This document shows, piece by piece, positions 21,338-36,901 of a stretch of DNA of 64,000 bases. How positions within the stretch are numbered: the first letter of the stretch is position 1; every line of letters starts with the position of its first letter. The notes under the pieces are model-generated. The model ran no database searches, had not been told where the DNA came from, and saw nothing but the letters and a program-made list of their open reading frames with translations. A program made the position numbers and the translations under genes. Origin of the DNA: an uncultured Erysipelotrichaceae bacterium (GTDB lineage Bacteria; Bacillota_I; Bacilli_A; RF39; UBA660); NCBI GenBank assembly GCA_902798815.1, contig CADBYH010000001.1, positions 69,554 through 133,553 of the forward strand, in the 5' to 3' direction.

Positions 21338-22066
21338 ATGAAAGCATTAATATTAAACTCAGGTGTCGGTAGTCGTATGGGTGATATTACACATTCTCAT
21401 CCTAAATGTATGACTGAAATTGCTAATGATGAAACAATAATAAGTAGACAGTTAGAATTATTGAAAAAATGTGGTATTAATTCAGTAGTTATGACTACAG
21501 GTTATTTAGATAAAGTTTTAGAAGATTATTGTAATAATTTAGGACTAGACTTGGATATTGAATATGTTAAAAATCCAAGATTTAGAGAAACTAATGCAAT
21601 TTATTCTATATATTGTGCAAGAGATTATCTTCATGATGATATTGTTATGATGCATGGAGATTTAGTGTTTACCTTAGAAGTACTAAAAAAAGTTATTGGT
21701 GATAAGAGAAGTGTAATGACTGTTAGTTCAACAATACCCTTACCAGAAAAAGATTTTAAAATCGTCATCACAGGAGATACTATAGAAAAAATAGGTGTAG
21801 AGTATTTTGACAACGCTTTATCTGCCCAACCTTTATATAAAATAAAAAGAAAAGATTGGGAGATATGGTTAAACAGCATTATTAGTTATTGTGAGAATCA
21901 TAAAGTTAATTGTTATGCAGAAGAAGCATTTAATACGGTTTCTAATCAATGTCGTATATATCCATTAGATGTTAAAAATGAATTATGTTCAGAAATAGAT
22001 AATCCAGAAGATTTAGATAATATCAAACGAAAATTAAAACAATATAAGAGAGGAGACAATAAGTAA
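21338..22066 (+). CDS. sugar-phosphate/phosphobase nucleotidyltransferase (LicC-like NTP transferase)
   Basis: N-terminal KALILNSGVGSRMG (GxGxR nucleotidyltransferase signature). First gene of the phosphonate cluster. Confidence 0.65.
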   Translation: MKALILNSGVGSRMGDITHSHPKCMTEIANDETIISRQLELLKKCGINSVVMTTGYLDKVLEDYCNNLGLDLDIEYVKNPRFRETNAIYSIYCARDYLHDDIVMMHGDLVFTLEVLKKVIGDKRSVMTVSSTIPLPEKDFKIVITGDTIEKIGVEYFDNALSAQPLYKIKRKDWEIWLNSIISYCENHKVNCYAEEAFNTVSNQCRIYPLDVKNELCSEIDNPEDLDNIKRKLKQYKRGDNK

Positions 22067-23367
22067 TGGAAAAGACTGTATATATGGTTATGTCTACTGA
22101 CGTTATTCATGGTGGGCATATTGCTATTATTAATAAAGCAAAAAAACTTGGCAATTTAATTATAGGCGTTTTATCAGATGAAGCAGTTGCCGGTTATAAA
22201 AGATTTCCATTAATTCCTTATGAAGAAAGAAAAATATTATATAAAAATATTGATGGAGTATCTAAAGTAGTTAAACAAAATACTCTTAGTTATAAAAAAA
22301 ACATTTTAAAACTAAAACCAGATTATGTTGTTCATGGAGATAATTGGATTAATGGAAAACAAAAATTAATAAGACAAGAAGTAATTGAAACATTAGAAAC
22401 ATATGGAGGTAAATTAGTAGAATTTCCTTATTCTGATGATCCAAAGTATAAGGCAATTGATGATAGAACAAGATTTGAATTATCCCTTCCTGATTTTAGA
22501 AGAGCTAGATTAAAAAGATCTCTAGAATGTAAAGGTCTAATTACTGCTATGGAAGCACATAGTGGTATAACTGGTCTAATAGTAGAAAAAACAATGGTAG
22601 AAGAAAATGGTGGAATGAAACAATTTGATGCAATGTGGATTAGTTCTCTTTGTGATTCAACATCAAAAGGAAAACCTGATATTGAATTAGTAGATATGAC
22701 ATCTCGCTTTAGAACAATAGATGATATTATGGAGGTAACTACTAAGCCAATCATTTTTGATGGAGATACAGGTGGATTAAAAGAACACTTTGTATATACT
22801 GTAAGAACTTTAGAAAGAATGGGAGTTTCCATGATTATCATTGAAGATAAAATAGGATTAAAGAAAAACTCATTATTTGGAACAGAAGTGAAACAGATAC
22901 AAGATGATATAGATAGTTTCTGTGAAAAAATAAAAGCAGGAAAGGAAGCTCAAAAAAGTCAAGATTTTATGATTTGTGCTAGAATTGAGAGTTTGATTTT
23001 AGAAGCAGGAATGTCAGATGCATTAAAAAGAGCAAAAGCATTTGTGAAAGCAGGAGCAGATGCAATTATGATTCATAGCAGAAGAAAAGAACCAGACGAA
23101 ATATTTGAATTTGTTGAAAAATTTAGAAGCAAAGATAAAACAACTCCTATTGTAGTTGTTCCAACTTCATTTAATACAGTAACAGAAGAAGAATTCAAAA
23201 AACGTGGGGTAAATATAGTAATATATGCCAATCAATTAACAAGAGCTGGATTTCCAGCTATGCAGAATGCTGCAAAAAAAATCTTAGAAAATCATCGTGC
23301 TAAAGAAGTAGACGATATGTGTATATCAATTAAAGAAATAATCACATTAATTCCAGAAGATTATTAG
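22066..23367 (+). CDS. pepM: bifunctional cytidylyltransferase / phosphoenolpyruvate mutase (Fom1/PntC-PepM type fusion)
   Basis: The N-terminal ~130 aa carry the cytidylyltransferase HxGH motif (TDVIHGGHIAIINKAKKLG). The C-terminal domain carries the PEP mutase signature EDKxxxxxNS (IIEDKIGLKKNSLFG). Confidence 0.85.
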   Translation: MEKTVYMVMSTDVIHGGHIAIINKAKKLGNLIIGVLSDEAVAGYKRFPLIPYEERKILYKNIDGVSKVVKQNTLSYKKNILKLKPDYVVHGDNWINGKQKLIRQEVIETLETYGGKLVEFPYSDDPKYKAIDDRTRFELSLPDFRRARLKRSLECKGLITAMEAHSGITGLIVEKTMVEENGGMKQFDAMWISSLCDSTSKGKPDIELVDMTSRFRTIDDIMEVTTKPIIFDGDTGGLKEHFVYTVRTLERMGVSMIIIEDKIGLKKNSLFGTEVKQIQDDIDSFCEKIKAGKEAQKSQDFMICARIESLILEAGMSDALKRAKAFVKAGADAIMIHSRRKEPDEIFEFVEKFRSKDKTTPIVVVPTSFNTVTEEEFKKRGVNIVIYANQLTRAGFPAMQNAAKKILENHRAKEVDDMCISIKEIITLIPEDY

Positions 23368-23376
23368 GAGAATAAT

Positions 23377-24504
23377 ATGCAAAAAATACTAAGTTCAAAA
23401 AAAAATTATATTGATTTGAAAAAATATCTGCAAAATAATAAATATCAAAATATTTTATTAGTATGTGGTAACCATTTTTTAAAAAGTGATTTATATAAAA
23501 AAATTATTGAATATACAAATAATTTAAATATTAATATTCATATTTTTAAAGATTTTGAACCAAACCCAAGTTATGAATCAGTATGCTTAGGAGTAAAAAA
23601 GTTTATAGATAATAATTGTGATTTCATTATTGCTGTAGGTGGAGGAAGTAGTATTGATGTAGCAAAATGTATTAAACTATATTCTAATATGGATCATAGC
23701 AAAAATTATTTAAACCAAGAATTTATCCCAAATAATACAAAAATTTTAGCTATTCCTACAACCGCGGGAACAGGAAGTGAAGCAACTAAGTATTCTGTTA
23801 TTTACTATAAAGGAGAAAAACAATCTATAACTAGTGATAGTTGTATTCCTGAAATAGTATTATTTGATAATAATTCTTTAGAAACTCTTTCCATATATCA
23901 AAAGAAAGCAACTTTATTAGATGCTTTTAGTCATTCAATAGAATCATTATGGTCAATTAATTCAACAGAAGAAAGTATTAATTATGCGATAGAATCAATT
24001 AAATTAATTATTAAAAACATTAATAAATATTTAGAAAACGATTCAAGTATTTTTAAAGATATGTTTGAAGCATCTAATCTAGCAGGAAAAGCAATAAACA
24101 TTTCTAGAACAACAGCTGGACACGCTATGTGCTATAAATTAACAACTAAATATAATATTTCTCATGGGCATGCAGCAATGTTAATAAATTCAGAACTTCT
24201 TCCTTATATGATGGAAAACACTAATAAGTGTTCAGATCCAAGAGGAGAAAAACATTTAAAAGAAATATTTAGTATTATAAAAAAAACACTCAAATGTAAA
24301 AATAATAATGAATTAAAAAATTATTTTAGAAATCTATTAGATAAACTAGATTTATATAATGTTGAAGTAAATAAAAAAGATATTGATTTACTAGTTAAAT
24401 CAGTAAATGTAACTAGGTTATCAAATAATCCAATAAAATTAGAAAATAATGATATCAAAATAATCTATGAAAGATTATTTGATAGAATAGGTGATAAGCA
24501 ATGA
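23377..24504 (+). CDS. iron-containing alcohol dehydrogenase (phosphonoacetaldehyde reductase-like)
   Basis: Fe-ADH motifs AVGGGSSIDVAKC and HGHAAM. Sits between pepM and the phosphonopyruvate decarboxylase gene. Confidence 0.7.
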   Translation: MQKILSSKKNYIDLKKYLQNNKYQNILLVCGNHFLKSDLYKKIIEYTNNLNINIHIFKDFEPNPSYESVCLGVKKFIDNNCDFIIAVGGGSSIDVAKCIKLYSNMDHSKNYLNQEFIPNNTKILAIPTTAGTGSEATKYSVIYYKGEKQSITSDSCIPEIVLFDNNSLETLSIYQKKATLLDAFSHSIESLWSINSTEESINYAIESIKLIIKNINKYLENDSSIFKDMFEASNLAGKAINISRTTAGHAMCYKLTTKYNISHGHAAMLINSELLPYMMENTNKCSDPRGEKHLKEIFSIIKKTLKCKNNNELKNYFRNLLDKLDLYNVEVNKKDIDLLVKSVNVTRLSNNPIKLENNDIKIIYERLFDRIGDKQ

Positions 24505-25625
24505 AGGTATTAGACTTTATAAAAACATTAGGTTCAGACTTTTATACAGGAGTGCCTGACTCTCAATTAAAACCATTATGCAACTATTTAATGAATACAT
24601 ATGGTATTGATAATAAACATCACATAATTGCAGCGAATGAAGGTAATTGTGTTGGACTAGCAGCAGGATACTATTTAGCAACATCAAAAATACCAGTAGT
24701 ATATATGCAAAATAGTGGAGAGGGTAATATTATTAATCCCGTAGCCTCTTTATTAAATGAAAAAGTATACAGCATTCCAATGATATTTGTAATAGGTTGG
24801 AGAGGACAACCAGGAGTTCACGATGAACCTCAACATATCTATCAAGGGGAAATAACGATTAAATTGTTAGATGATATGAATATCTCATCATTTATAATAA
24901 AAAAAGATACAACAAAAGAAGAGATAAAAAACAAAATGAAGAATTTTAAAAAAAATCTAAAAGAGGGCAAACAAGTTGCATTTGTGATAGAAAAGAACGC
25001 TTTAGAATATGATCAAAAAATAGAATATAAAAATGATAATAAAATGAATAGAGAAGAAATAATTGAGCATATTGTAAAAGTAAGCAAAAATGATCCTATC
25101 ATATCAACAACAGGTAAAGCCTCTCGCGAATTATTTGAAATAAGAGAAAAGAATAATGAATCCCACGAATATGATTTTTTAACAGTAGGTTCCATGGGTC
25201 ATTCATCTTCAATTGCCTTGGGAATAGCAATAGAAAAACCAGAATCAAAAATATGGTGTATTGACGGTGATGGAGCATTATTAATGCATATGGGTTCAGC
25301 AGCAGTTATTGCATCAGTAAAACCTAATAACTTTATTCATATCTTAATTAATAATGGAGCTCATGAAACAGTAGGAGGTATGCCAACTGTTGCAAATAAT
25401 ATTAATTTACCTAAATTAGCTGAAGCATGTGGTTATAAAAAAATATATAGTGTAGATAATTTTAAAGACTTAGATAAAGTTTTAAAAGAAGCAAAGAAAA
25501 ATAATAAGTTGACATTTATCGAGGTGTTATCATCAATAGGAGCAAGATCTGATTTAGGAAGACCCACAACAACAGCAAAAGAAAACAAAGAAAACTTTAT
25601 GAAATACTTAAATAAAAATAATTAA
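24501..25625 (+). CDS. phosphonopyruvate decarboxylase (ThDP-dependent)
   Basis: ThDP-binding motif IDGDGALLMHMGSAAV...LINNGAHETVGG. Length (~375 aa) and adjacency to pepM fit this assignment. Confidence 0.8.
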   Translation: MKVLDFIKTLGSDFYTGVPDSQLKPLCNYLMNTYGIDNKHHIIAANEGNCVGLAAGYYLATSKIPVVYMQNSGEGNIINPVASLLNEKVYSIPMIFVIGWRGQPGVHDEPQHIYQGEITIKLLDDMNISSFIIKKDTTKEEIKNKMKNFKKNLKEGKQVAFVIEKNALEYDQKIEYKNDNKMNREEIIEHIVKVSKNDPIISTTGKASRELFEIREKNNESHEYDFLTVGSMGHSSSIALGIAIEKPESKIWCIDGDGALLMHMGSAAVIASVKPNNFIHILINNGAHETVGGMPTVANNINLPKLAEACGYKKIYSVDNFKDLDKVLKEAKKNNKLTFIEVLSSIGARSDLGRPTTTAKENKENFMKYLNKNN

Positions 25626-25650
25626 TAATAGGCTTCTTATGAAGTTAAAC

Positions 25651-25679
25651 TTGAAAAAAATCGAAAAATATGGTATAAT
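25651..25679 (+). promoter_or_regulatory. extended -10 promoter of riboswitch leader 1
   Basis: TTGAAA - 17 nt (containing TGG) - TATAAT. Confidence 0.55.
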
Positions 25680-25687
25680 ATACATTC

Positions 25688-25799
25688 GTAAGAGGGAGTA
25701 GTTCCATCTAAAGGTGTAGTAACTCAACACTATGATATTTATTATCTGGGTTACTTATAAAGAACAAGACTTTTATAGAAATATAAGAGTCTTTTTTTT
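25688..25799 (+). promoter_or_regulatory. yybP-ykoY (Mn2+)-type riboswitch-like leader with intrinsic terminator, copy 1
   Basis: P1 GTAAGAG (25688-94) abuts GGAGTAG (25695-701). P2 is CATC/GGTG. P3.1 is AGTAACTC/GGGTTACT, with internal loop AACACTAT, and P3.2 is GATA/TATC. CAAGA (25765-69) abuts P1' CTTTTAT. P1' overlaps the 5' arm of the terminator GACTTTTAT/ATAAGAGTC, which is followed by T8. Confidence 0.7.
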
Positions 25800-25828
25800 A
25801 TGACTCTTACAAAAGGGGTGATTTATTT

Positions 25829-26446
25829 ATGCATACAAAAAACTTAAGGAGAGTAGCTGAAGAATTAGAAAAAACACATAAAATAAGAAATCTAAAAATA
25901 TCTAGAGAAATGATAGATTATCATTGTGATAAATGTTGGTATTCCTGGGCAGAAACATCAACAGAAATAGAATTCAATGATAGATTATATAAAATTCTTC
26001 TTAAAATGTTACCAAAAGAAATTAGATTAACATTAAAAAAACTTGATAAAGAAATCTTTAAATTAAGAGTAGAAATTAAAAAATCAACCGGATGGGAATT
26101 ATTTGATAGAACAAGTATGTATCATGGATATAAACCAGAAAGACCATTCTTTAAAGAACCAGAAGTTAAACGTAATGAAAATGGTTTCTACGTAGAAATG
26201 CAAGAATCATATCTTTATCAAGAACATAAAGCAATAGATGAGAGAGCAAAACAGTTCTACGAAGAAAATAAAGAGACATTAAAAAAACTACATGATTTAA
26301 TGTCAACGAAAGAATTAATTTTAAATAAAACTATATCATTAGTTTCAGAAGAAAACAAAGATCTTACTAGAGAGATATTATTATTTCTAGGATATAATCC
26401 TAATGAAGAAAATGAAACAACATATAATAACAGATTTTTTATATAA
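25829..26446 (+). CDS. hypothetical cytosolic protein (paralog A), riboswitch-controlled
   Basis: SD AAAGGGGTGA. 205 aa with no TM segment. Shares ...LLKMLPKEIR...KKSTGW... and a C-terminal ...EILLFLGYNPNEENETTYN with the next gene. Confidence 0.7.
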   Translation: MHTKNLRRVAEELEKTHKIRNLKISREMIDYHCDKCWYSWAETSTEIEFNDRLYKILLKMLPKEIRLTLKKLDKEIFKLRVEIKKSTGWELFDRTSMYHGYKPERPFFKEPEVKRNENGFYVEMQESYLYQEHKAIDERAKQFYEENKETLKKLHDLMSTKELILNKTISLVSEENKDLTREILLFLGYNPNEENETTYNNRFFI

Positions 26447-26481
26447 AGTAGCTAATAGCTTAAAGAAGGGGTGTGATGTAT

Positions 26482-27051
26482 ATGAGTAATTACGAAAAAT
26501 TAGTTATAGAATTATGCAATATTAATAAAAAAGATTTAGCAGAAAGAATAATCAAAGTAGAGGAAAATCATGAATATCAAGAAAAAAGAAGAATAGATTA
26601 TGAATTATATTTATTATTATTAGATCTTGTTCCAGAAAGAATTAAAGATCAAATTGAAACATTAAGATTAGAAATAATTAATATGAAAAAGTCTATTATG
26701 GATCAATCTGGATGGTATGTAGATAACGATATATTTGAATTTAGTAATGGAGTATTCATGCATGACTTTAGTTATGACATGGGATATGATGTTGCTTATA
26801 TTGTTAGAAACAACAAAGAGTATAAGGTATTAGATGATTTCAAAACACCAAGTAGAGAACGTTTAGAAACTGATTTCTTTGAAACATACAAAGAACAATT
26901 AATAGGACTTAATGATATGATATGCTTATATGAATTATTATTAAGAACTTGTTCAAAATCAGTTAAAAACAACAAATCATTAGTAAATGAAATTGTTACT
27001 TACTTGGGATATAATGATTCTAAGAAAAAAAATAAAACCTATAATTATTAA
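26482..27051 (+). CDS. hypothetical cytosolic protein (paralog B)
   Basis: SD GAAGGGG at 26465-71. The ATG at 26482 has better spacing than the track GTG at 26473. Shares LLLDLVPERIK...KKSIMDQSGW...EIVTYLGYNDSKKKNKTYN with the previous gene. Confidence 0.7.
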   Translation: MSNYEKLVIELCNINKKDLAERIIKVEENHEYQEKRRIDYELYLLLLDLVPERIKDQIETLRLEIINMKKSIMDQSGWYVDNDIFEFSNGVFMHDFSYDMGYDVAYIVRNNKEYKVLDDFKTPSRERLETDFFETYKEQLIGLNDMICLYELLLRTCSKSVKNNKSLVNEIVTYLGYNDSKKKNKTYNY

Positions 27052-27056
27052 ATATA

Positions 27057-27085
27057 ATAGCAATGATTTCATTGCTATTTTTTTA
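27057..27085 (+). terminator. intrinsic terminator
   Basis: ATAGCAATGA / TCATTGCTAT hairpin plus T7. Confidence 0.7.
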
Positions 27086-27159
27086 TTAAAAAGAATGTAT
27101 TTTTATAGGAAATATGTTACAATTAAAATGGTATAGTATAGAAAAGGATGGTGATATAA

Positions 27160-28521
27160 ATGATAAATAATATTAATCAAAATATATCAAAACCATCCTT
27201 TTTATATACAGATAAAAATAACTATGAAGAATTTTTAAATGAAGCTAGAAATAACAATACATCTATTATTGGATTTACATCATTGCTACCAGAACCTGAT
27301 CTAGTCCTTCCAGATATTGATAAACCATCATTTAAAGATATTGATAAATTTATAGAATCAATTTCTAATTTAAAATACCAAGAAAAATTCATTCCAATTT
27401 TAACTGGTTTTGAAACAGAATATCATCCAATGAAAGAAGCATATCTTGCAGAAGCAAGAGAAAAAGTTGATTTCTTAATCTTATTTCAAAGACATGTTAA
27501 TAAAGGACTAATAAATACTAATCCAACAAACAATCCAAACTATCCAATTGAATACGCAAATACAGTTATTAAAGCACTTGAAAGTGGCTTGTTTGATATA
27601 GTTAAATTCCCTGATTATTTTACAAAATATGAGAGTACTATAACAGAAGAAAATCAAGAATTATATAAAGAAAATGTAGAAATTGCCAGTCAAGTAATAT
27701 GTGAAAAAGCAAGAGATTTAAATATTCCAATAGAATTAGACTTATCAAATGCAAACACTAGCCAAGTATTTGTAGAAATTGCCAGTGAGATAGATAATCT
27801 ACAAGTACTTATAAATTCATCACATAATGATAATAATCTATATAAATTAATTGAATCAAAAATTGTAAATAAATATTATAGCCCTGTAAGTAATAGACAA
27901 AATAATAAGAAACTTCAAAAACTATGTAGTAAGACATCAAATAATTCATTAACATATGAAACACATATGATTAATCAAATAATGAAAAATGCCTTTAAAA
28001 ACATAAAAGTATGGGACAATCCAGAAAATTTAGAAATAACAATAAGTTATATATTAGATCAAACCTTTAAAAATTGCGTAAAGGATGCAAATGAACAATA
28101 TAACTCAATTATAAATGATCCTGTATTAAAAAAATCTGAAAAACAACAGATTGCTAAAGAAATACTAGAAGTATTAGATAAACAAAAAATAGTTTTAGAA
28201 AACGCTAAAGAATATTTCTCTATAGCAGTTAATCTAGGGTGTAATTCAAAAAAAGAATATTTAAATATAATTACTCAAATTTCTCAATATAATTCAACTA
28301 CATCAGAACTACAAAAGTTAGATATAGAAGAACATCTTAATAGATATGCTGCTTCAAAAGGATTAATAAATATAGATAGACATGTATATACATTACGAAA
28401 AGAAAAAAACTTTTTAACAGAAAACGAAGGCTCAATAAGTATATTTGGAATTGTATTAATTTCAATAATATTATGTATTTTAGTTATTTGTTTAATTGTC
28501 TATAAAGTAATAATAATGTAA
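27160..28521 (+). CDS. degenerate PHP-fold (HisJ-like) protein with C-terminal membrane anchor
   Basis: The layout follows HisJ-type PHP phosphatases (GFETEY for GlEvDY, FQRHV for gSvH, KFPDYF for gHxD, IELDLSN for lElN). However, the N-terminal HxH and most other metal ligands are replaced. C-terminal TM helix IFGIVLISIILCILVICLIVY. Confidence 0.6.
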   Translation: MINNINQNISKPSFLYTDKNNYEEFLNEARNNNTSIIGFTSLLPEPDLVLPDIDKPSFKDIDKFIESISNLKYQEKFIPILTGFETEYHPMKEAYLAEAREKVDFLILFQRHVNKGLINTNPTNNPNYPIEYANTVIKALESGLFDIVKFPDYFTKYESTITEENQELYKENVEIASQVICEKARDLNIPIELDLSNANTSQVFVEIASEIDNLQVLINSSHNDNNLYKLIESKIVNKYYSPVSNRQNNKKLQKLCSKTSNNSLTYETHMINQIMKNAFKNIKVWDNPENLEITISYILDQTFKNCVKDANEQYNSIINDPVLKKSEKQQIAKEILEVLDKQKIVLENAKEYFSIAVNLGCNSKKEYLNIITQISQYNSTTSELQKLDIEEHLNRYAASKGLINIDRHVYTLRKEKNFLTENEGSISIFGIVLISIILCILVICLIVYKVIIM

Positions 28522-28673: not shown

Positions 28674-31600
28674 ATGAATTCATCTGATAATACATTTTTT
28701 ATAAGTAATATAGAAGATATAATGGATAGTTTAGAAGATGTGATTACAGAAATAGATGATCAATATAATGAAGATGCAGGAGAATTATTTGATAATTGTA
28801 ATTTCTCAGAATTAATAAATGTTTTAAACAAATATCGATCAGACTTTGTTACGAATAATCACATATCCGTTGAATCATTAAAAATGACATATGCTATTAT
28901 GAATCCTGAAGATAAAAATAAAGTATATTCAGATGAAGAATATAATAATCTCCTAAAGAAAATCGCTGATGTTCACGGTGATAGATTATATGAAATAATG
29001 GGAGTATCATACTATAGTTTTGATATGAGTAATCTAGATGGTTTATTGAATTATGATGATCCAAAGTATGCTAGTACATATAGAAATGTTCTTGGAAGAA
29101 AATTGATAGAAATACCAATTGATGATTCTATTAATATTTTGAAAAATATTAATAAAAATGCCATTGATCAAGATTTTATTATAAAGTTTATTGAACAAAA
29201 AAATGAATTAAAATTTGGGGATAAATTAATTGCTTTAGCAAGCGTTTTACCAAAAGAAATGTTGGAAGATGGAAAAATAGGTAAAGAAATGATTAAAAAA
29301 ATAGACTCCATTTATTTTGGATCTGAAAAACTACTTGATTATATCCCTGAAACTGCATATGATAGCGAATTAGTTGAAATGATACTTAATAAAACAACAG
29401 ATAATGGTTTTTATGCAATATTTCAGAAAATACCTAAACAACTAAAGACTAGAGAAATATATGAAAGAGTATGTAGTAATAATTCATATTTTATTCATGA
29501 ACTTCCAAAAGAAAGTATTGATCCTAATATATCTGAAGAAGAATATAACCTATGGGTAAATAAACTGATTGTTGATGCTATTAATACAGATCCTGAATCA
29601 TCATATTCATTTTTTAGAGAATTAGATGATTCAAGAAAAACTAAAGAGATATGCACAATGGTTGCTAAAAACTTATCATTTAGTAGTGAATATGAATATG
29701 GTTATTTTCTCGAAAAAGTTCCTAATAATTGTAGAAGTAAAGAATTATATGAAATTATATTAGAAAAAACTACTGAAATAATAAGAAATATTCCGCAAGA
29801 ATCATTTGATCCAAATATCTCACAAGAAGAGTATGATAAATGGTATAAATCTTTAGTAATGAATAGTATCGATAAATCAAATTCTATGATGAATATCAGA
29901 AAACAAATTCCACCATCAAAAATGGATGAAAAGCTTTGGAATAGAATGCTAGATAAATGTATTGAGACTAAGGAAGATAAAAGATGTGCATCACTTGAAT
30001 ATATAGATTATGAAAATCTAACTCCTCAGATGATAGAAAGAGCAATAAATGAAATTGATGAAACACAAATATATTATATTCCGTGTATTGATAGAAAATT
30101 AGATGGATTACCAGAACAAGAAAAAGAAAAATATGCTAGATGGCAATCATCACTATCAGAAGAAGAAAAAAAATCTTACAGAGATTTATACGAAAGACTA
30201 TGGATTGATTTTGTGAATAAAAATTCACCAGCATCATTATATGAAAGAGTTCCACGTGAAGGAATAACTCACAATATGCATATGACATGTATTGATAAAG
30301 ATAACTTTTTAGCAATCAAATGTATGCCATTACCTGAAACAGAACAAGAAAAAGAAGAATATCAAAAATTACTTATATATGCTATAAGTAAAATAGAACC
30401 AATTAATTATAATAAAGAACACTCAGATCTTATAGAAGAAAGAGATATTCTTGAAAATATACCTCAAGAATTAATAAATGAAGATGTTCTAAGAGCAGCA
30501 ATAGAAAAAAGCAGTATATATTTATCATATGCTAATGTTGATTCGGAAAATTTTGAAGAATTATTAAATATCGGATATAAAGGAAAATTAGAATCATTAG
30601 GAAGAGATAAACTAACAAAAGAGGAAATAGAATTAATTCAGAGATTTGCACACAGTAATAGTGATTTATTTAAAACATTGAAATTAGAAATATTAGACCC
30701 AAGAATTGTAAGTACAATTGGAGAAGATAGTTTAGAAATAATTACAAGATATAAAGATGTACAAAATTCAGTATTGAAATTAGCAAATAATGAAGATGCA
30801 CTAGCAACATTTGGCTTTGTTTTAGAAAACTTAAAAGAAGATAGTCAATTCATTGAACCAACAATTGAAAAATTATCTCGATCAATATCATATCAAGGAG
30901 AAACAGGATATGGAAATACAGGTTCACAATTTTTAAAATCTGTAAATAAGAGATTAAAAAGAAAAGATGTCCCTGTTACAGACTACGAAAAAGTAATTAT
31001 ATCTCATTTAGCTTTAAATACAAGAGAAGGTAAAAAAATAAATAATTACGAAGATGTTTTAACATATGTAGATAGAAAAAATAGTGAATTAGAAACTATA
31101 GTTTCCAATCCAAATGCATCATTAATAGATGTAAAAAATGCATATTTAGAAAGAGTCATCGGAATGGATTATGAAACTGCAAAAAATCTTGTTAGTACTT
31201 ATGGTAATGATCCAGAAGAGCTTTTAAGAAAATATGATAATTTAGATCCTAATGCTTATCAAGAACTTGCTGAAAAAGAAGCACTTGAAATCATTATAAA
31301 ATTAAAATCTATAATAGAAACAAATGATATTAATGCTTTAAGAAGTGAATTTCAAAAATATGTTAGTGAAGAAAAAAGAGAAGATTCATACAAAAGATAT
31401 AAAACAGCTCCAAAAATCGATTCTACATTAAGAAGAGCTTATGGAAGAGATATTACAGAATCATTATCAAAAACAGAAGGCCAGTTAGAAGAAAAAGAAC
31501 TTGAATCAGGTGAAAAATATTATGTAAGACGTGTCTCAGGTGATTTTAATAGAATGGTAAGTTTATTAGGAGCTTACAGAAAATCAGGTGCTACAGAAGG

Positions 31601-32567
31601 AGACATGTATGACAGATGGAATACCAGTGAAATGTCAGGTAATCATGCTTTATGTTACAGTTTAATTAATCAATCAAATCCTGGAACAGCTATGATTGAT
31701 GGTAAAAAAGGTGTAATTATATCTGTAAATGGTTTCAGCCCTGAAGCAGTATCTGCTGCGGCACCTTACGATTTATGCTCAGATAATAGATTTAATACGG
31801 TTCATACCTGGAGAGACCAAAGGTTTTTTAGTGCCAGAAATATGCCTAATCAAACAAGAGGAATGTATTCTGAATATGATATAGAAATTAAAGATGTAAA
31901 CGCTCCTAAAGGTACTTATAGAAAGATACAACCAGCATCAATTATCTGTTTTGAAGAAATTGATGAGGATAGTATAAATGCATCAATTGAATTATCAAAG
32001 AAATTAGTATATCCAGTGCCAATAGAATTAATTGATAGAAGAGAACTTGCAAGAAATGAAATGATCCAAATACTTGCTGCATACAATGAATTTAAAAAAG
32101 GTGATAATTTAGATCCAGCATTACTTGAACAAATTATCACAAGATTTAATAATGTCAGAAATGCCCATAGATATTCAAATTTATCTGACGAATTATTAGG
32201 TGAAAAAGAAGAAGAAAATAAACAAGCACCATTTAATAAAGAACATTTAAATCAAATAATCAAAGAATGTCTTAAAGTAATAGAGCAAAAGATAAAATCC
32301 GGAAAAGTAGAAGAAGGACTTCAAGTTTTAGAACAATTAAAAACTATAATTGCAAAAGAAAGAGAAAAAGCATACCTTATGCCAACTATGCACGATAAAC
32401 AAAGATGGACATCGATTGATATGGAAATTGATTATGCAATAGACTCTATGATAAGAACATACTCGCAACCAGTAATAACAGAGCAAAAGGAATCTCAATC
32501 GATTGATGTAGTAAGAAATTTACAAGGTCAAAGTCTTAACTCAGTCGTATATGATATTAGTTATTAA
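28674..32567 (+). CDS. giant cytosolic repeat protein (DUF4116-like helical repeats + unassigned C-terminal globular domain)
   Basis: Strong SD AAGGAGG. 1297 aa with no signal peptide or TM. Repeats include LPKESIDPNISEEEYNLWVNKLIVDAI / IPQESFDPNISQEEYDKWYKSLVMNSI and ...IPKQLKTREIYERV... / ...VPNNCRSKELYEII.... The C-terminal ~300 aa are non-repetitive. Confidence 0.8.
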   Translation: MNSSDNTFFISNIEDIMDSLEDVITEIDDQYNEDAGELFDNCNFSELINVLNKYRSDFVTNNHISVESLKMTYAIMNPEDKNKVYSDEEYNNLLKKIADVHGDRLYEIMGVSYYSFDMSNLDGLLNYDDPKYASTYRNVLGRKLIEIPIDDSINILKNINKNAIDQDFIIKFIEQKNELKFGDKLIALASVLPKEMLEDGKIGKEMIKKIDSIYFGSEKLLDYIPETAYDSELVEMILNKTTDNGFYAIFQKIPKQLKTREIYERVCSNNSYFIHELPKESIDPNISEEEYNLWVNKLIVDAINTDPESSYSFFRELDDSRKTKEICTMVAKNLSFSSEYEYGYFLEKVPNNCRSKELYEIILEKTTEIIRNIPQESFDPNISQEEYDKWYKSLVMNSIDKSNSMMNIRKQIPPSKMDEKLWNRMLDKCIETKEDKRCASLEYIDYENLTPQMIERAINEIDETQIYYIPCIDRKLDGLPEQEKEKYARWQSSLSEEEKKSYRDLYERLWIDFVNKNSPASLYERVPREGITHNMHMTCIDKDNFLAIKCMPLPETEQEKEEYQKLLIYAISKIEPINYNKEHSDLIEERDILENIPQELINEDVLRAAIEKSSIYLSYANVDSENFEELLNIGYKGKLESLGRDKLTKEEIELIQRFAHSNSDLFKTLKLEILDPRIVSTIGEDSLEIITRYKDVQNSVLKLANNEDALATFGFVLENLKEDSQFIEPTIEKLSRSISYQGETGYGNTGSQFLKSVNKRLKRKDVPVTDYEKVIISHLALNTREGKKINNYEDVLTYVDRKNSELETIVSNPNASLIDVKNAYLERVIGMDYETAKNLVSTYGNDPEELLRKYDNLDPNAYQELAEKEALEIIIKLKSIIETNDINALRSEFQKYVSEEKREDSYKRYKTAPKIDSTLRRAYGRDITESLSKTEGQLEEKELESGEKYYVRRVSGDFNRMVSLLGAYRKSGATEGDMYDRWNTSEMSGNHALCYSLINQSNPGTAMIDGKKGVIISVNGFSPEAVSAAAPYDLCSDNRFNTVHTWRDQRFFSARNMPNQTRGMYSEYDIEIKDVNAPKGTYRKIQPASIICFEEIDEDSINASIELSKKLVYPVPIELIDRRELARNEMIQILAAYNEFKKGDNLDPALLEQIITRFNNVRNAHRYSNLSDELLGEKEEENKQAPFNKEHLNQIIKECLKVIEQKIKSGKVEEGLQVLEQLKTIIAKEREKAYLMPTMHDKQRWTSIDMEIDYAIDSMIRTYSQPVITEQKESQSIDVVRNLQGQSLNSVVYDISY

Positions 32568-36422: not shown

Positions 36423-36451
36423 TTAACAAAAACAGCATAATATGGTATAAT
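36423..36451 (+). promoter_or_regulatory. extended -10 promoter of riboswitch leader 2
   Basis: TTAACA - 17 nt (containing TGG) - TATAAT. The spacing from -10 to GGAGTAG is the same 16 nt as in copy 1. Confidence 0.55.
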
Positions 36452-36459
36452 TATATACG

Positions 36460-36579
36460 TTGAAATGGAGTAGTTCTCATTTATAAAATGATTTTTAATT
36501 CGTCAACACAAGAATCTTATTCTTCGGATTAAAAATAAATAACAAGACTTTCACATTAAATAATGTGGGAGTCTTTTTT
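36460..36579 (+). promoter_or_regulatory. yybP-ykoY (Mn2+)-type riboswitch-like leader with intrinsic terminator, copy 2
   Basis: P1 TTGAAAT abuts GGAGTAG (36467-73). P2 is CATT/AATG. P3.1 is ATTTTTAATTC/GGATTAAAAAT (11 bp), L3 is GTCAACAC opposite C, and P3.2 is AAGAAT/ATTCTT. CAAGA (36543-47) abuts P1' CTTTCA. The terminator GACTTTCACATT/AATGTGGGAGTC plus T6 overlaps P1'. Confidence 0.7.
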
Positions 36580-36610: not shown

Positions 36611-36901
36611 ATGATAAGAGAAATTTGTACAATTGATTTTATTAAAGGAGTTAGATTTATATCTGCTATAGAGAATGGAACAATAAAATTATTTTCATTA
36701 GATGAAGGAATTTCACTTTATATTGAAGCTGATGAAAATACAAGAAACATTAAAAGTATAAGAATTAATGGAAAATACTTTGATGTGACTATGAAAAATA
36801 TTAATGCTTTAAATAATTTTTATAGTAAAAATGGATTAGGTACAGATATAACAATAACAGAACCTACAAATACATATATTGATAAACCATCAATTAAATA
36901 A
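36611..36901 (+). CDS. hypothetical small protein (96 aa), riboswitch-controlled
   Basis: ATG at 36611 follows SD AAGGGGGAA. The track start at 36563 lies inside the terminator hairpin and is rejected. Confidence 0.65.
   Translation: MIREICTIDFIKGVRFISAIENGTIKLFSLDEGISLYIEADENTRNIKSIRINGKYFDVTMKNINALNNFYSKNGLGTDITITEPTNTYIDKPSIK

What the first reader, a model, noticed from the sequence alone, without database searches (positions are those of the whole stretch)
25651..25828. Leader RNA with yybP-ykoY (Mn2+) riboswitch architecture upstream of a non-transporter gene pair
Seen in sequence: an extended -10 promoter is followed by a 112-nt leader. In it, GTAAGAG (P1 5' strand) directly abuts GGAGTAG. 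A 4-bp P2 hairpin (CATC/GGTG) comes next. Then an 8-bp P3.1 (AGTAACTC/GGGTTACT) encloses an asymmetric loop (AACACTAT opposite T) and a P3.2 hairpin. CAAGA directly abuts CTTTTAT (P1 3' strand).

From memory, the Lactococcus lactis Mn2+ aptamer has the same order: AAAGG-GGAGUAG-NNN-P2-N-P3.1-GUCAAUUC-P3.2-C-P3.1'-...-CAAGA-CCUUU.

The P1 3' strand is also the 5' arm of the terminator GACTTTTAT/ATAAGAGTC plus T8, and the terminator 3' arm mimics the P1 5' strand. Ligand-stabilised P1 would therefore block termination, giving an ON switch like known Mn2+ riboswitches.

The controlled genes (25829 and 26482) are paralogous soluble proteins of unknown function. They are not MntP/TerC/P-type ATPase exporters.
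Basis: partly seen in the sequence, partly recalled or inferred. Interest (0 to 1): 0.75.

Follow-up and report, generated by a model that had tools for sequence, protein, structure and literature searches.

The report
Manganese-type riboswitch controlling unknown genes
The leader is a compact three-helix version of the known manganese-sensing (yybP-ykoY) riboswitch that the standard database model misses, and it belongs to a large subgroup in uncultured gut/rumen Bacilli that switches on membrane-associated and unknown proteins instead of metal exporters.

Summary

**Class.** Rfam's RF00080 gives no hit on the leader. That test is weak here. The same model scores the validated E. coli mntP riboswitch below its own cut-off, and it missed 16 of 16 related leaders.

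Other evidence places the element in the yybP-ykoY class, three-way-junction subtype, as in the Streptococcus mgtA riboswitch:
- A pattern taken from the leader retrieved at least 120 genomic loci. Pfam and clustering assign 86 of them to P-type ATPase or MntP genes.
- A covariance model built only from exporter-linked leaders hits the window at 25687-25778 (60 bits) and at a second copy, 36459-36556 (35 bits). It also finds E. coli mntP (38 bits).

**Subgroup.** The window's copies belong to a subgroup of 78 hits from rumen/gut Bacilli.
- L1 is invariant and the L3 core is conserved.
- P2, P3.1 and P3.2 covary.
- Nearly all have their own promoter, and each I read has a terminator.
- None of the downstream genes I scanned is a transporter. 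They include SPFH/Band_7, TelA, lipoproteins and unknown families, among them the 205-aa family found here.

**Mechanism.** The terminator overlaps the L1 and P1 3' strands, so ligand binding should allow read-through (an ON switch). The ligand is untested.

**Verdict.** A new member of a known class with an unusual regulon.

The parts
25651..25679 (+). Sigma-70 promoter: -35 TTGAAA (25651-56), 17-nt spacer, extended -10 TGgTATAAT (25671-79). The inferred transcription start is about 25686-88.
   Evidence: 11 of 12 consensus matches, with TG; 70 of 71 related leaders have a -10-like hexamer, for most 13-16 nt before GGAGUAG, and 58 of 71 have the TGn extension.
25688..25694 (+). P1 5' strand, GUAAGAG. 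It pairs with 25770-76.
   Evidence: 7 bp, three of them G-U. In the subgroup alignment this helix is 99% paired, but changes are mostly on one side only.
25695..25701 (+). L1 5' strand, GGAGUAG. This is the conserved metal-site loop of the yybP-ykoY class.
   Evidence: Invariant in 67 of 67 distinct subgroup leaders. The same heptamer appears in the RF00080 consensus and in E. coli mntP.
25702..25704 (+). P1.2 5' strand, UUC. It pairs with GAA 25762-64.
   Evidence: In exporter-linked leaders the third pair covaries: UG 14, GU 9, AU 3, GC 1.
25705..25716 (+). P2 hairpin: CAUC, loop UAAA, GGUG.
   Evidence: All 6 modelled P2 pairs show changes on both sides in the subgroup.
25718..25755 (+). 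P3 arm.
- P3.1: 25718-25 with 25748-55.
- L3 internal loop: 25726-33 opposite U 25747.
- P3.2 hairpin: 25734-46.

The L3 core UCAAC spans 25724-28. C25725 and A25726 correspond to the metal-contacting C40 and A41 of the L. lactis riboswitch.
   Evidence: All P3.1 and P3.2 pairs covary. The UCA core is conserved. The correspondence to C40/A41 is by alignment to the description in PMC6649816.
25756..25764 (+). Junction UAUAAAGAA, which takes the place of helix P4. Its last 3 nt form the P1.2 3' strand.
   Evidence: Exporter-linked 3WJ leaders have UUAAAGAA, UUAAAUAA or similar here. Streptococcus has UNAAA (PMC6649816).
25765..25776 (+). L1 3' strand CAAGA (25765-69) followed by the P1 3' strand CUUUUAU (25770-76).
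   Evidence: ACAAGAC is invariant, apart from one G in one column, in 67 leaders. Pairing is shown.
25768..25799 (+). Intrinsic terminator: GACUUUUAU, loop AGAAAU, AUAAGAGUC, then U8. In the minimum-free-energy fold the stem extends to AAGACUUUUAUA/UAUAAGAGUCUU. It therefore sequesters part of L1 3' and the whole P1 3' strand.
   Evidence: terminator state -29.1 kcal/mol against -16.1 kcal/mol for the aptamer-constrained state.
25803..25811 (+). Segment D, GACUCUUAC, just after the U-tract and just before the ribosome-binding site. It is complementary to the terminator 3' arm and to the P1 5' strand.
   Evidence: a complement of at least 5 nt is present in 53 of 69 related leaders (shuffled control mean 1.3 nt), and it covaries with the terminator arm; the full-length fold pairs it with 25688-94.
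25829..27051 (+). Controlled operon: a 205-aa gene (25829-26446) and its 192-aa paralogue (26473-27051). The operon is closed by a terminator at 27056-27079.
   Evidence: A profile search found 81 representative relatives, all about 200 aa. The AlphaFold2 model is helical with pLDDT 77 and has no PDB fold match.
36423..36579 (+). Second copy of the riboswitch.
- Promoter: TTAACA 36423-28 and TGgTATAAT 36443-51.
- Aptamer: 36459-36556, with GGAGUAG at 36467-73 and CAAGAC at 36543-48.
- Terminator: 36546-73, then U6 36574-79.

P2 and P3.1 have entirely different sequences from copy 1 but still pair.
   Evidence: (35.5 bits, E = 5e-7).
36611..36901 (+). 96-aa ORF of unknown function downstream of copy 2, with no Pfam hit.

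Best explanation
Window 25651-25828 is a self-contained transcriptional ON riboswitch of the yybP-ykoY (Mn2+) class, in its three-way-junction form.

**Proposed mechanism**
1. A strong extended -10 promoter starts the transcript at the foot of P1.
2. The first ~90 nt fold into P1, P1.2, P2 and the P3.1/P3.2 arm. The conserved L1 loop (GGAGUAG with CAAGA) can then dock against the L3 loop (UCAAC).
3. In characterised members of the class, a divalent metal, Mn2+, bridges these two loops.
4. With metal bound, L1 3' and the P1 3' strand are held in the aptamer. The terminator (25768-25799) cannot form, and RNA polymerase reads through into the 205-aa and 192-aa gene pair.
5. Without metal, the much more stable terminator takes those nucleotides. 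Transcription stops, leaving a ~113-nt RNA.

**What is shown and what is inferred**
- Shown here: the anatomy, its conservation and covariation, the class assignment by comparison, and the mutually exclusive pairing.
- Inferred: the transcription start, the ligand (Mn2+), and the direction and size of the response.

**Wider picture**
A second copy at 36423-36579 controls a 96-aa ORF. Both belong to a subgroup, often with several copies per contig, in AT-rich uncultured Bacilli from rumen and gut. The target genes I could assign are not transporters. They include SPFH/Band_7, TelA, lipoproteins and unknown families.
For: **Anatomy at the stated coordinates.**

**The signature marks the Mn2+ riboswitch class.**
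- Downstream genes cluster as 51 P-type ATPase, 35 MntP, 3 Na/Ca exchanger, 2 TerC and 1 GDT1, among others.
- These include the four families the literature lists for the class (bioRxiv 10.1101/2024.09.30.615890).

**A model trained on exporter-linked leaders finds the window's copies.**
- Model R1 was built only from 27 leaders of MntP or P-type ATPase genes. In that alignment 19 of 27 pairs show changes on both sides, and 0 of 500 shuffles reach the observed values.
- R1 scores 25687-25778 at 60.1 bits (E = 1e-13) and 36459-36556 at 35.5 bits. The next best hit in 64 kb scores 17.5 bits.
- R1 also finds the validated E. coli mntP aptamer at 37.9 bits, at the same place as RF00080.

**Conservation and covariation in the subgroup (78 hits, 67 distinct sequences).**
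- 96.7% of cells are paired and 17 of 25 pairs show changes on both sides.
- All P2, P3.1 and P3.2 pairs covary.
- GGAGUAG is invariant and ACAAGAC is all but invariant.

**Route independent of my DNA patterns.**
- Relatives of the 205-aa protein are preceded by the riboswitch in L211 (55 bits).
- In L212 the preceding riboswitch is a different form, without P2 and with P4.
- In L001 the riboswitch heads a Band_7 gene followed by a homologue of the 205-aa protein.

**Three-way junctions are accepted members of the class.**
- Rfam's SSRC10 family lies upstream of a S. pyogenes 'putative calcium transporter' gene (PMC3675131). Its consensus has the same layout, and it is the best Rfam match to the window (31.9 bits).

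**Expression platform.** The terminator overlaps L1 3' and P1 3'. The energies are -29.1 kcal/mol for the terminator state and -16.1 kcal/mol for the aptamer state.
Against: - Rfam RF00080 gives no hit at all, even at E<=10 on 97 nt. The SSRC10 match is below its gathering score (31.9 against 56).
- Helix P4 of the canonical four-way junction is absent.
- No Mn exporter or any transporter follows either window copy, and none was found among the subgroup families I scanned. Gene context therefore gives no support for Mn2+ as the ligand.
- R1's training sequences were retrieved with a 22-nt pattern copied from the window, so part of its score is circular.
- P1 and P1.2 in the subgroup show almost no changes on both sides.
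- In nearest-neighbour energies the aptamer fold is no better than alternative folds of the same 93 nt (-16.1 against -16.2 kcal/mol).
- Nothing about ligand binding was or could be tested here.
Confidence: 0.8

Rival explanations
1. The fold and the ON-switch logic are the same, but the physiological signal in this subgroup is not Mn2+. It could be another divalent cation such as Ca2+, Fe2+, Co2+ or Ni2+, or a combined metal and pH cue. The regulon would then be an envelope or environment response rather than Mn homeostasis.
For: - No transporter was found among the subgroup target families I scanned. The targets include SPFH/Band_7, TelA, lipoproteins and unknown families.
- Several contigs carry more than one copy: the window, L158, L206 and L149.
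- The S. pneumoniae three-way-junction member binds Ca2+ more tightly than Mn2+ in vitro (PMC6649816 abstract).
- Class members also respond to alkaline pH (PMC8632737).
- The positions after the UCA core of L3 vary within the subgroup: UCAAC, UCAAU, UCAGG, UCAGC.
Against: - The nucleotides described as metal-contacting, the L1 GGAGUAG/AGA and the L3 C-A, are conserved just as in exporter-linked leaders.
- In S. pneumoniae, Mn2+ is still the stronger activator of read-through (PMC6649816).
- B. subtilis yybP is a precedent for a target of this riboswitch class with unknown function (PMC8632737).
Confidence: 0.13
2. The ~113-nt promoter-to-terminator unit is mainly a stand-alone small RNA acting in trans. 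Rfam files the streptococcal counterpart, SSRC10, as an sRNA. On this view it is not a cis regulator of the downstream genes.
For: - The unit has its own promoter and a strong terminator.
- SSRC10 was detected as a discrete RNA on Northern blots (PMC3675131).
- SSRC10 is the best Rfam match to the window.
Against: - In the leaders I read, a ribosome-binding site and a same-strand gene follow within about 45-60 nt.
- The terminator competes with conserved aptamer strands, which is the hallmark of a cis switch.
- A terminated leader is the expected OFF-state product of such a switch.
- The streptococcal mgtA leader, in the equivalent position before the ATPase gene, is shown to be a cis-acting riboswitch (PMC6649816).
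Confidence: 0.04
3. The leader is a ligand-independent attenuator, or it binds a protein, and merely resembles the Mn2+ aptamer.
For: - RF00080 gives no hit.
- The sequence is AU-rich, and short helices form easily in such sequence.
- The aptamer fold is not favoured thermodynamically over alternatives.
Against: - The loops are invariant while the helices covary across 67 distinct leaders.
- A model built from exporter-linked leaders gives specific hits in the window.
- The motif is expected 0 times by chance.
Confidence: 0.03

Closest known systems
Streptococcus pneumoniae mgtA Mn2+/Ca2+ riboswitch, the three-way-junction subtype of yybP-ykoY. Its S. pyogenes counterpart appears to be filed in Rfam as SSRC10, RF02617.
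   Same: - P1, L1 (GGAGUAG), P2, P3.1, L3 (UCAA), P3.2, a short A-rich junction in place of P4, L1 3' (A/G)AGAC, then an intrinsic terminator that overlaps P1 3'.
- An ON switch acting by antitermination.
- SSRC10 is the best Rfam match to the window (PMC6649816).
   Different: - The window scores below SSRC10's gathering score (31.9 against 56 bits).
- The junction is UAUAAAGAA, not UNAAA.
- L1 3' is CAAGAC, not CGAGAC.
- The 3' side of L3 is UGG in copy 1.
- The target is not a P-type ATPase.
Canonical four-way-junction yybP-ykoY Mn2+ riboswitches (Rfam RF00080): L. lactis yoaB, B. subtilis ykoY and yybP, E. coli mntP.
   Same: - The L1 and L3 consensus nucleotides, and the P1, P2, P3.1 and P3.2 helices.
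- Termination control in Firmicutes.
- My exporter-trained model scores E. coli mntP at 37.9 bits and the window at 60.1 and 35.5 bits.
- B. subtilis yybP is likewise a target of unknown function (PMC8632737).
   Different: - The window has no P4 helix.
- It is not detected by RF00080.
- It is AU-rich with minimal helices, for example a 4-bp P2.
- Its gene context lacks TerC, MntP, GDT1 and P-type ATPase genes.
Three-way-junction yybP-ykoY leaders of MntP and P-type ATPase genes in Clostridia and other gut Bacillota
   Same: - Identical architecture and junction style (UUAAAGAA-CAAGAC).
- The terminator overlaps P1 3'.
   Different: - These leaders control exporters.
- The window's subgroup has the signature GGAGUAGUUCCA...AGAACAAGACUUUUA. 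It has non-transporter targets and frequently carries the post-terminator segment D.

Membership tests
yybP-ykoY / Mn2+ riboswitch (RF00080) | Reaches the curated Rfam covariance-model gathering score. This is an operational criterion, not a structural one. | tested here: not met
   No RF00080 hit at the gathering score, nor at E<=10 on 301 nt or 97 nt.

Controls:
- The validated E. coli mntP aptamer scores 41.6 bits, below the gathering score of 45.
- None of 16 related loci reaches the gathering score, including leaders of MntP, TerC and P-ATPase genes.
- In the printed consensus, the release-15 model ends at P4 and does not show P1 3' or CAAGAC.

The criterion is therefore uninformative here.
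yybP-ykoY / Mn2+ riboswitch (RF00080) | Conserved L1 loop: 5' GGAGUAG, and 3' AGA within (C)AAGAC. | tested here: met
   GGAGUAG 25695-701 and CAAGAC 25765-70. GGAGUAG is invariant and ACAAGAC all but invariant in 67 distinct relatives. The same heptamer appears in the RF00080 consensus and in mntP.
yybP-ykoY / Mn2+ riboswitch (RF00080) | L3 internal loop with invariant C-A, the metal-contacting C40/A41 of L. lactis, within UCAA. | tested here: met
   CUCAACAC 25723-30 in copy 1 and GUCAACAC in copy 2. The UCA core is kept in the subgroup with rare exceptions such as L209, which has UCGAC. The feature is as described in PMC6649816.
yybP-ykoY / Mn2+ riboswitch (RF00080) | Helices P1, P2, P3.1 and P3.2 in the canonical order, supported by covariation. 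| tested here: met
   One search shows the pairs in the window. P2, P3.1 and P3.2 all have changes on both sides, with 96.7% of cells paired against 40-50% when the 3' partners are slid. P1 changes on one side only.
yybP-ykoY / Mn2+ riboswitch (RF00080) | Helix P4, completing a four-way junction. | tested here: not met
   Only 9 nt (UAUAAAGAA) lie between P3.1 3' and L1 3'. The literature accepts three-way-junction members, where P4 is replaced by UNAAA in Streptococcus (PMC6649816). P4-less leaders also precede MntP and P-ATPase genes. P4 is therefore not required for membership.
yybP-ykoY / Mn2+ riboswitch (RF00080) | Recognised by a covariance model built from leaders of bona fide Mn-exporter genes. 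| tested here: met
   R1 scores the window's two copies at 60.1 and 35.5 bits, noise at 17.5 bits or less, and E. coli mntP at 37.9 bits. Caveat: the training set was retrieved with a 22-nt pattern taken from the window.
yybP-ykoY / Mn2+ riboswitch (RF00080) | Typical gene context (TerC, MntP, GDT1/UPF0016, P-type ATPase). This is typical of the class, not defining for the RNA. | tested here: not met
   The targets are the 205/192-aa paralogues and a 96-aa ORF. In the subgroup they include Band_7, TelA, lipoproteins and unknown families.
yybP-ykoY / Mn2+ riboswitch (RF00080) | Selective Mn2+ binding and Mn2+-dependent gene activation. | not testable with these tools
   This needs in-line probing or ITC, transcription assays and reporters.
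SSRC10 (RF02617, Streptococcus sRNA 10) | Reaches the gathering score of 56 bits. The family lies upstream of the streptococcal Ca/Mn P-type ATPase gene. | tested here: not met
   31.9 bits for copy 1 with its terminator, and 12.1 bits for copy 2. The downstream gene is not an ATPase. The relation is one of similar architecture, not membership.

The most novel reading that the evidence does not exclude
In a lineage of uncultured, AT-rich rumen/gut Bacilli, the Mn2+-type aptamer has been copied many times per genome. It has been re-purposed as a general ON switch for a dozen or more families of envelope-associated and unknown proteins, including SPFH/Band_7, TelA, lipoproteins and the 205-aa family. 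It may respond to a cue other than Mn2+ excess.

The conserved post-terminator segment D may add a second layer of control, acting on mRNA conformation or translation. On this reading the 205-aa family and its neighbours would be previously unrecognised metal-stress proteins.
Probability: 0.2. Interest if true: 0.65.

Novelty: new member of a known kind. Interest (0 to 1): 0.42.

Why it matters
**Annotation gap.** The current Rfam Mn2+ riboswitch model missed every compact three-way-junction leader I tested. These leaders are common in gut Bacillota: at least 120 species-level genomes matched one strict pattern. Mn regulons in such genomes are therefore likely under-annotated.

**Candidate genes.** The subgroup gives a ready-made list of candidate metal-stress genes with no known function: SPFH/Band_7, TelA, several lipoprotein families and the 205-aa helical family. 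All come from organisms that cannot be cultured.

**Aptamer for testing and engineering.** The ~85-nt AU-rich aptamer, with a 4-bp P2 and no P4, is close to a minimal natural version of the fold. That makes it useful for testing which parts are needed for metal selectivity, and for biosensor design.

Tried and rejected
- **Rfam scans.** Gathering-threshold scan of the whole window, and E-value scans of both copies. No riboswitch family was found, only weak SSRC10 matches. Controls then showed RF00080 to be uninformative here.
- **BLAST of the leader against plasmid and phage collections.** Only short matches of up to ~60 nt, mostly over the promoter region.
- **Viral-contig scan with GGAGTAGTTC..GAACAAGAC.** It returned 18 stretches, all with high-GC or coding-like flanks and no leader features, so I treated them as chance matches.
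- **Word-indexed protein search for the 205-aa protein.** Only 2 relatives. The exhaustive profile search was needed to find 81.
- **Structure route to a function for the 205-aa protein.** The AlphaFold2 model is usable (pLDDT 77), but Foldseek against the PDB found nothing at E<=0.001.
- **Pfam on the subgroup's target families.** Only Band_7 and TelA were recognised.
- **Idea that segment D sequesters the Shine-Dalgarno sequence in the OFF state.** By eye, the possible pairing (CUCUU with AGGAG) is short and inconsistent between loci, so I do not claim it.
- **R1 on E. coli alx.** R1 does not detect the alx leader, so the model is not a general detector for the class.
- **Literature.** One full-text search for yybP-ykoY together with SPFH, Band 7, prohibitin, stomatin or flotillin. 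None of the listed papers contained yybP-ykoY. Dambach et al. 2015 (PMC4376352) is not held.
Full report
**1. The observation**

- Promoter: TTGAAA (25651-56), a 17-nt spacer, then TGgTATAAT (25671-79). It matches 11 of 12 consensus positions with an extended -10, and it is the best promoter-like site in 25000-27500.
- P1 5' strand GTAAGAG (25688-94), abutting GGAGTAG (25695-701).
- P2: CATC/GGTG (25705-16).
- P3.1: AGTAACTC/GGGTTACT (25718-25 with 25748-55).
- Asymmetric loop AACACTAT opposite a single T.
- P3.2: GATA/TATC (25734-46).
- CAAGA (25765-69), abutting CTTTTAT (25770-76).
- Terminator GACTTTTAT/ATAAGAGTC followed by T8 (25768-99).

I add a 3-bp P1.2 helix: UUC 25702-04 with GAA 25762-64.

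The arrangement is not a chance product of an AT-rich sequence. GGAGTAG-N50-80-CAAGAC is expected 0.00 times in dinucleotide-preserving shuffles of the window, yet it occurs twice. The fold has a z-score of -3.5.

**2.

Rfam 15 finds nothing at gathering thresholds anywhere in the window. RF00080 is absent even at E<=10 on 301 nt and on 97 nt. Taken alone, this would refute the interpretation, so I ran controls.

RF00080 is in the library, but it is insensitive.
- On the experimentally validated E. coli mntP leader it scores 41.6 bits, below its own gathering score of 45.
- The printed consensus ends at helix P4 and does not show the 3' CAAGAC or P1 strand.
- It reached the gathering score on none of 16 related leaders. 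These included leaders of MntP, TerC and P-type ATPase genes.

The only weak Rfam match is SSRC10 (RF02617): 31.9 bits for copy 1 and 12.1 bits for copy 2. Its consensus reads GGGAGUAG - hairpin - CGUCAAUAC - hairpin - UgAAA - CgaGaC - terminator.

SSRC10 lies just upstream of a S. pyogenes 'putative calcium transporter' gene (PMC3675131). This is the position of the S. pneumoniae mgtA riboswitch. That riboswitch is described as a yybP-ykoY member with a three-way junction, in which P4 is replaced by UNAAA (PMC6649816). I infer that SSRC10 and the mgtA riboswitch are counterparts.

**3. Comparative evidence for the class**

*Homologous leader.* The 205-aa protein has only two relatives in the word-indexed search. 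One is 52% identical. It sits in L001 behind a Band_7 gene, and the leader of that gene (L001 9007-9189) is clearly homologous to the window's. It conserves the promoter, GGAGUAGUUC, UCAAC and GAACAAGACUUUUAU, with different loops on P2 and P3.2.

*Second copy in the window.* It lies at 36459-36556. Its P2 and its 11-bp P3.1 have unrelated sequences that still pair, and it has its own promoter and terminator.

- About 5 of the hits look like chance matches in coding-like sequence.
- The rest are structured leaders followed by terminators.
- Their downstream genes cluster as 51 P-type ATPase, 35 MntP, 3 Na/Ca exchanger, 3 OAD-beta, 2 TerC, 2 CitMHS, 2 M48 peptidase and 1 GDT1.
- MntP, TerC, GDT1/UPF0016 and P-type ATPase are the four families the literature gives for yybP-ykoY targets (bioRxiv 10.1101/2024.09.30.615890).
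- Many of these exporter-linked leaders are three-way junctions, with the same UUAAAGAA-CAAGAC junction as the window.

*Covariance model.* From 27 exporter-linked three-way-junction leaders I built model R1. None of them belongs to the window's subgroup.
- In the training alignment 94.5% of cells are paired and 19 of 27 pairs show changes on both sides. None of 500 shuffles reaches the observed values.
- With filters off, R1 scores 25687-25778 at 60.1 bits (E = 1e-13) and 36459-36556 at 35.5 bits (E = 5e-7). The next best hit in the window scores 17.5 bits.
- R1 also finds the E. coli mntP aptamer at 37.9 bits, at the position RF00080 reports. It does not find alx.
- Caveat: the training set was retrieved with 22 nucleotides copied from the window, so part of the score is built in. 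The mntP hit and the protein-route hits in section 5 do not share this circularity.

**4. The subgroup**

A stricter pattern, GGAGTAGTTCCA-N-AGAACAAGACTTTTA, found 67 metagenome stretches, many on contigs that appear to be rumen or gut assemblies. The genome hits of this type come from MAGs labelled Bacilli, Bacillales or Candidatus Coprovivens. The window itself is 26% G+C.

R1 aligns 78 hits, 67 of them distinct.
- GGAGUAG is invariant and ACAAGAC is all but invariant.
- The L3 UCA core is conserved. There are two L3 styles: UCAAC...CUGG, and CG-UCA(G/A)(G/C)AC...CGG, which resembles L. lactis and Streptococcus.
- Every modelled pair of P2, P3.1 and P3.2 has changes on both sides. Overall 96.7% of cells are paired, against 40-50% when the 3' partners are slid.
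- P1 and P1.2 vary little.
- 70 of 71 distinct leaders have a -10-like hexamer, for most 13-16 nt before GGAGUAG. 58 have the TGn extension and 62 have a -35-like hexamer.

The first downstream genes form these clusters:

| Cluster | Members | Pfam |
|---|---|---|
| SPFH/Band_7 | 25 | Band_7, E = 4.5e-38 |
| Lipoprotein-like family | 13 | none |
| Three families, two of which look membrane-anchored | 6 each | none |
| 445-aa family heading a three-gene operon | 5 | none |
| TelA-like | 4 | TelA, E = 4e-12 |
| 517-aa family | 4 | none |
| The window's 205/192-aa family | 3 | none |

None of the families I scanned is a transporter.

Several contigs carry two copies: the window, L158, L206 and L149.

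In one full-text search, none of the listed papers connected yybP-ykoY with SPFH proteins. B. subtilis yybP is a precedent for a target of this riboswitch with unknown function (PMC8632737).

**5. The controlled genes**

The 205-aa and 192-aa proteins are paralogues: 27% identity, E = 1e-10. They have no significant Pfam match.

A profile search of 1.8 billion representatives finds 81 relatives, nearly all about 200 aa. The AlphaFold2 model is a helical bundle with pLDDT 77 and pTM 0.77. It has no significant fold match in the PDB.

I looked up the genomic context of five of these relatives.
- L211 has the riboswitch directly upstream (55 bits).
- L212 has a different yybP-ykoY architecture upstream. 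It has no P2 but has a P4 hairpin: GGGGAGUAG...UCAACAC...P4...GCAAGAC, followed by a terminator.
- L210, L214 and L215 have none.

The link between this protein family and the riboswitch class therefore recurs, with two aptamer architectures. This argues for a real functional connection.

In the window, L001 and L210 the family lies next to PHP-domain genes and polysaccharide-synthesis genes.

**6. Mechanism**

The minimum-free-energy terminator stem is AAGACUUUUAUA/UAUAAGAGUCUU. It consumes the P1 3' strand and four of the conserved L1 3' nucleotides, so the aptamer and the terminator are mutually exclusive.

The terminator state is favoured by 13 kcal/mol: -29.1 against -16.1 kcal/mol. The default state is therefore OFF. 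Read-through needs the aptamer to be stabilised while RNA polymerase transcribes 25777-25799. In characterised members, Mn2+ bridging L1 and L3 provides that stabilisation (PMC6649816; bioRxiv 10.1101/2024.09.30.615890).

The mutually exclusive pairing is shown here. The ligand and the size of the response are inferred.

There is one extra feature. A segment just after the U-tract (25803-11, GACUCUUAC) is complementary to the terminator 3' arm and to the P1 5' strand.
- Such a segment of at least 5 nt occurs in 53 of 69 related leaders. The shuffled control mean is 1.3 nt.
- It covaries with the terminator arm: GGAGUC/GACUCC, AAGGUC/GACCUU, GAAGUC/GACUUC.
- It lies beyond the U-tract, so it cannot influence the termination decision.
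- Its role in the full-length mRNA is unexplained.

**7. Verdict**

This is a yybP-ykoY (Mn2+-type) riboswitch of the three-way-junction subtype. It is a new member of a known class that the current Rfam model does not detect.

What is unusual is the regulon. A whole subgroup in uncultured Bacilli, often with several copies per contig, controls SPFH, TelA, lipoprotein and unknown genes rather than exporters. This leaves open, at roughly 15-20%, that the physiological signal or purpose differs from Mn2+ detoxification.

Noticed in passing
window 36423-36579 and ORF 36611-36901: A second, diverged copy of the same riboswitch. It has its own promoter and terminator and a longer, 11-bp P3.1. It lies upstream of a 96-aa ORF with no Pfam match, 10.8 kb downstream of the reported copy.
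   Followed up: yes
window 25803-25811; also L153, L158, L161, L172, L189, L192, L197 and others: A segment just after the terminator U-tract is complementary to the terminator 3' arm and to the P1 5' strand. It is present in 53 of 69 related leaders and covaries with the terminator arm. Its function is unknown, and it cannot act on the termination decision itself.
   Followed up: partly
L142 7462-7558 (E. coli mntP leader); 16 loci: Rfam 15's RF00080 model scores the validated E. coli mntP riboswitch below its own gathering score (41.6 against 45 bits). Its printed consensus does not show P1 3' or CAAGAC. It missed all 16 related leaders tested, including ones before MntP, TerC and P-ATPase genes. 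This looks like a sensitivity gap for compact and three-way-junction members.
   Followed up: partly
L128 1056-1290 (same arrangement in L208): A tandem arrangement. A complete riboswitch with its terminator is followed about 10 nt later by a second unit. The second unit keeps P2, P3, UCAAC, CAAGAC and a terminator, but lacks the GGAGUAGUUC L1 5' strand. It could be a degenerate aptamer or a constitutive second terminator.
   Followed up: no
L212 1110-1270: A differently built yybP-ykoY leader, with no P2 and with a P4 hairpin, precedes another member of the 205-aa protein family. The protein-riboswitch link is therefore not tied to one aptamer architecture.
   Followed up: partly
L149 6065-6154 (- strand): An extra riboswitch copy that my DNA pattern did not catch (31 bits with R1). 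It has CGAGAC in L1 3', as in the streptococcal consensus, rather than CAAGAC.
   Followed up: no
window 21338-25625: A phosphonate-type gene cluster lies directly upstream. It contains a nucleotidyltransferase-like ORF, a PEP mutase fused to a cytidylyltransferase domain (Pfam E = 2e-57), an ORF that looks like an iron-type alcohol dehydrogenase, and a TPP-dependent decarboxylase (likely phosphonopyruvate decarboxylase). This suggests phosphonate decoration of a surface polymer.
   Followed up: no
window 27160-28521; L210 2682-3560; L001 4354-5136: A PHP-domain gene lies next to, or within a few kb of, the 205-aa-family gene in three loci, alongside polysaccharide-synthesis genes. In the window the match is weak (E = 6e-4) and the protein appears to have a C-terminal membrane segment.
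   Followed up: no
window 28674-32567: A 1297-aa ORF with no significant Pfam match.
   Followed up: no
L148, L151, L166, L180 (downstream gene about 330-411 aa): The subgroup riboswitch precedes TelA-family ('toxic anion resistance') genes (Pfam E = 4e-12). These leaders also carry a ~25-nt insertion that enlarges P2. After the terminator, the stretch AAGACTCTAGTTAGGAGTCTTG-T6 looks like a second terminator-like hairpin.
   Followed up: no
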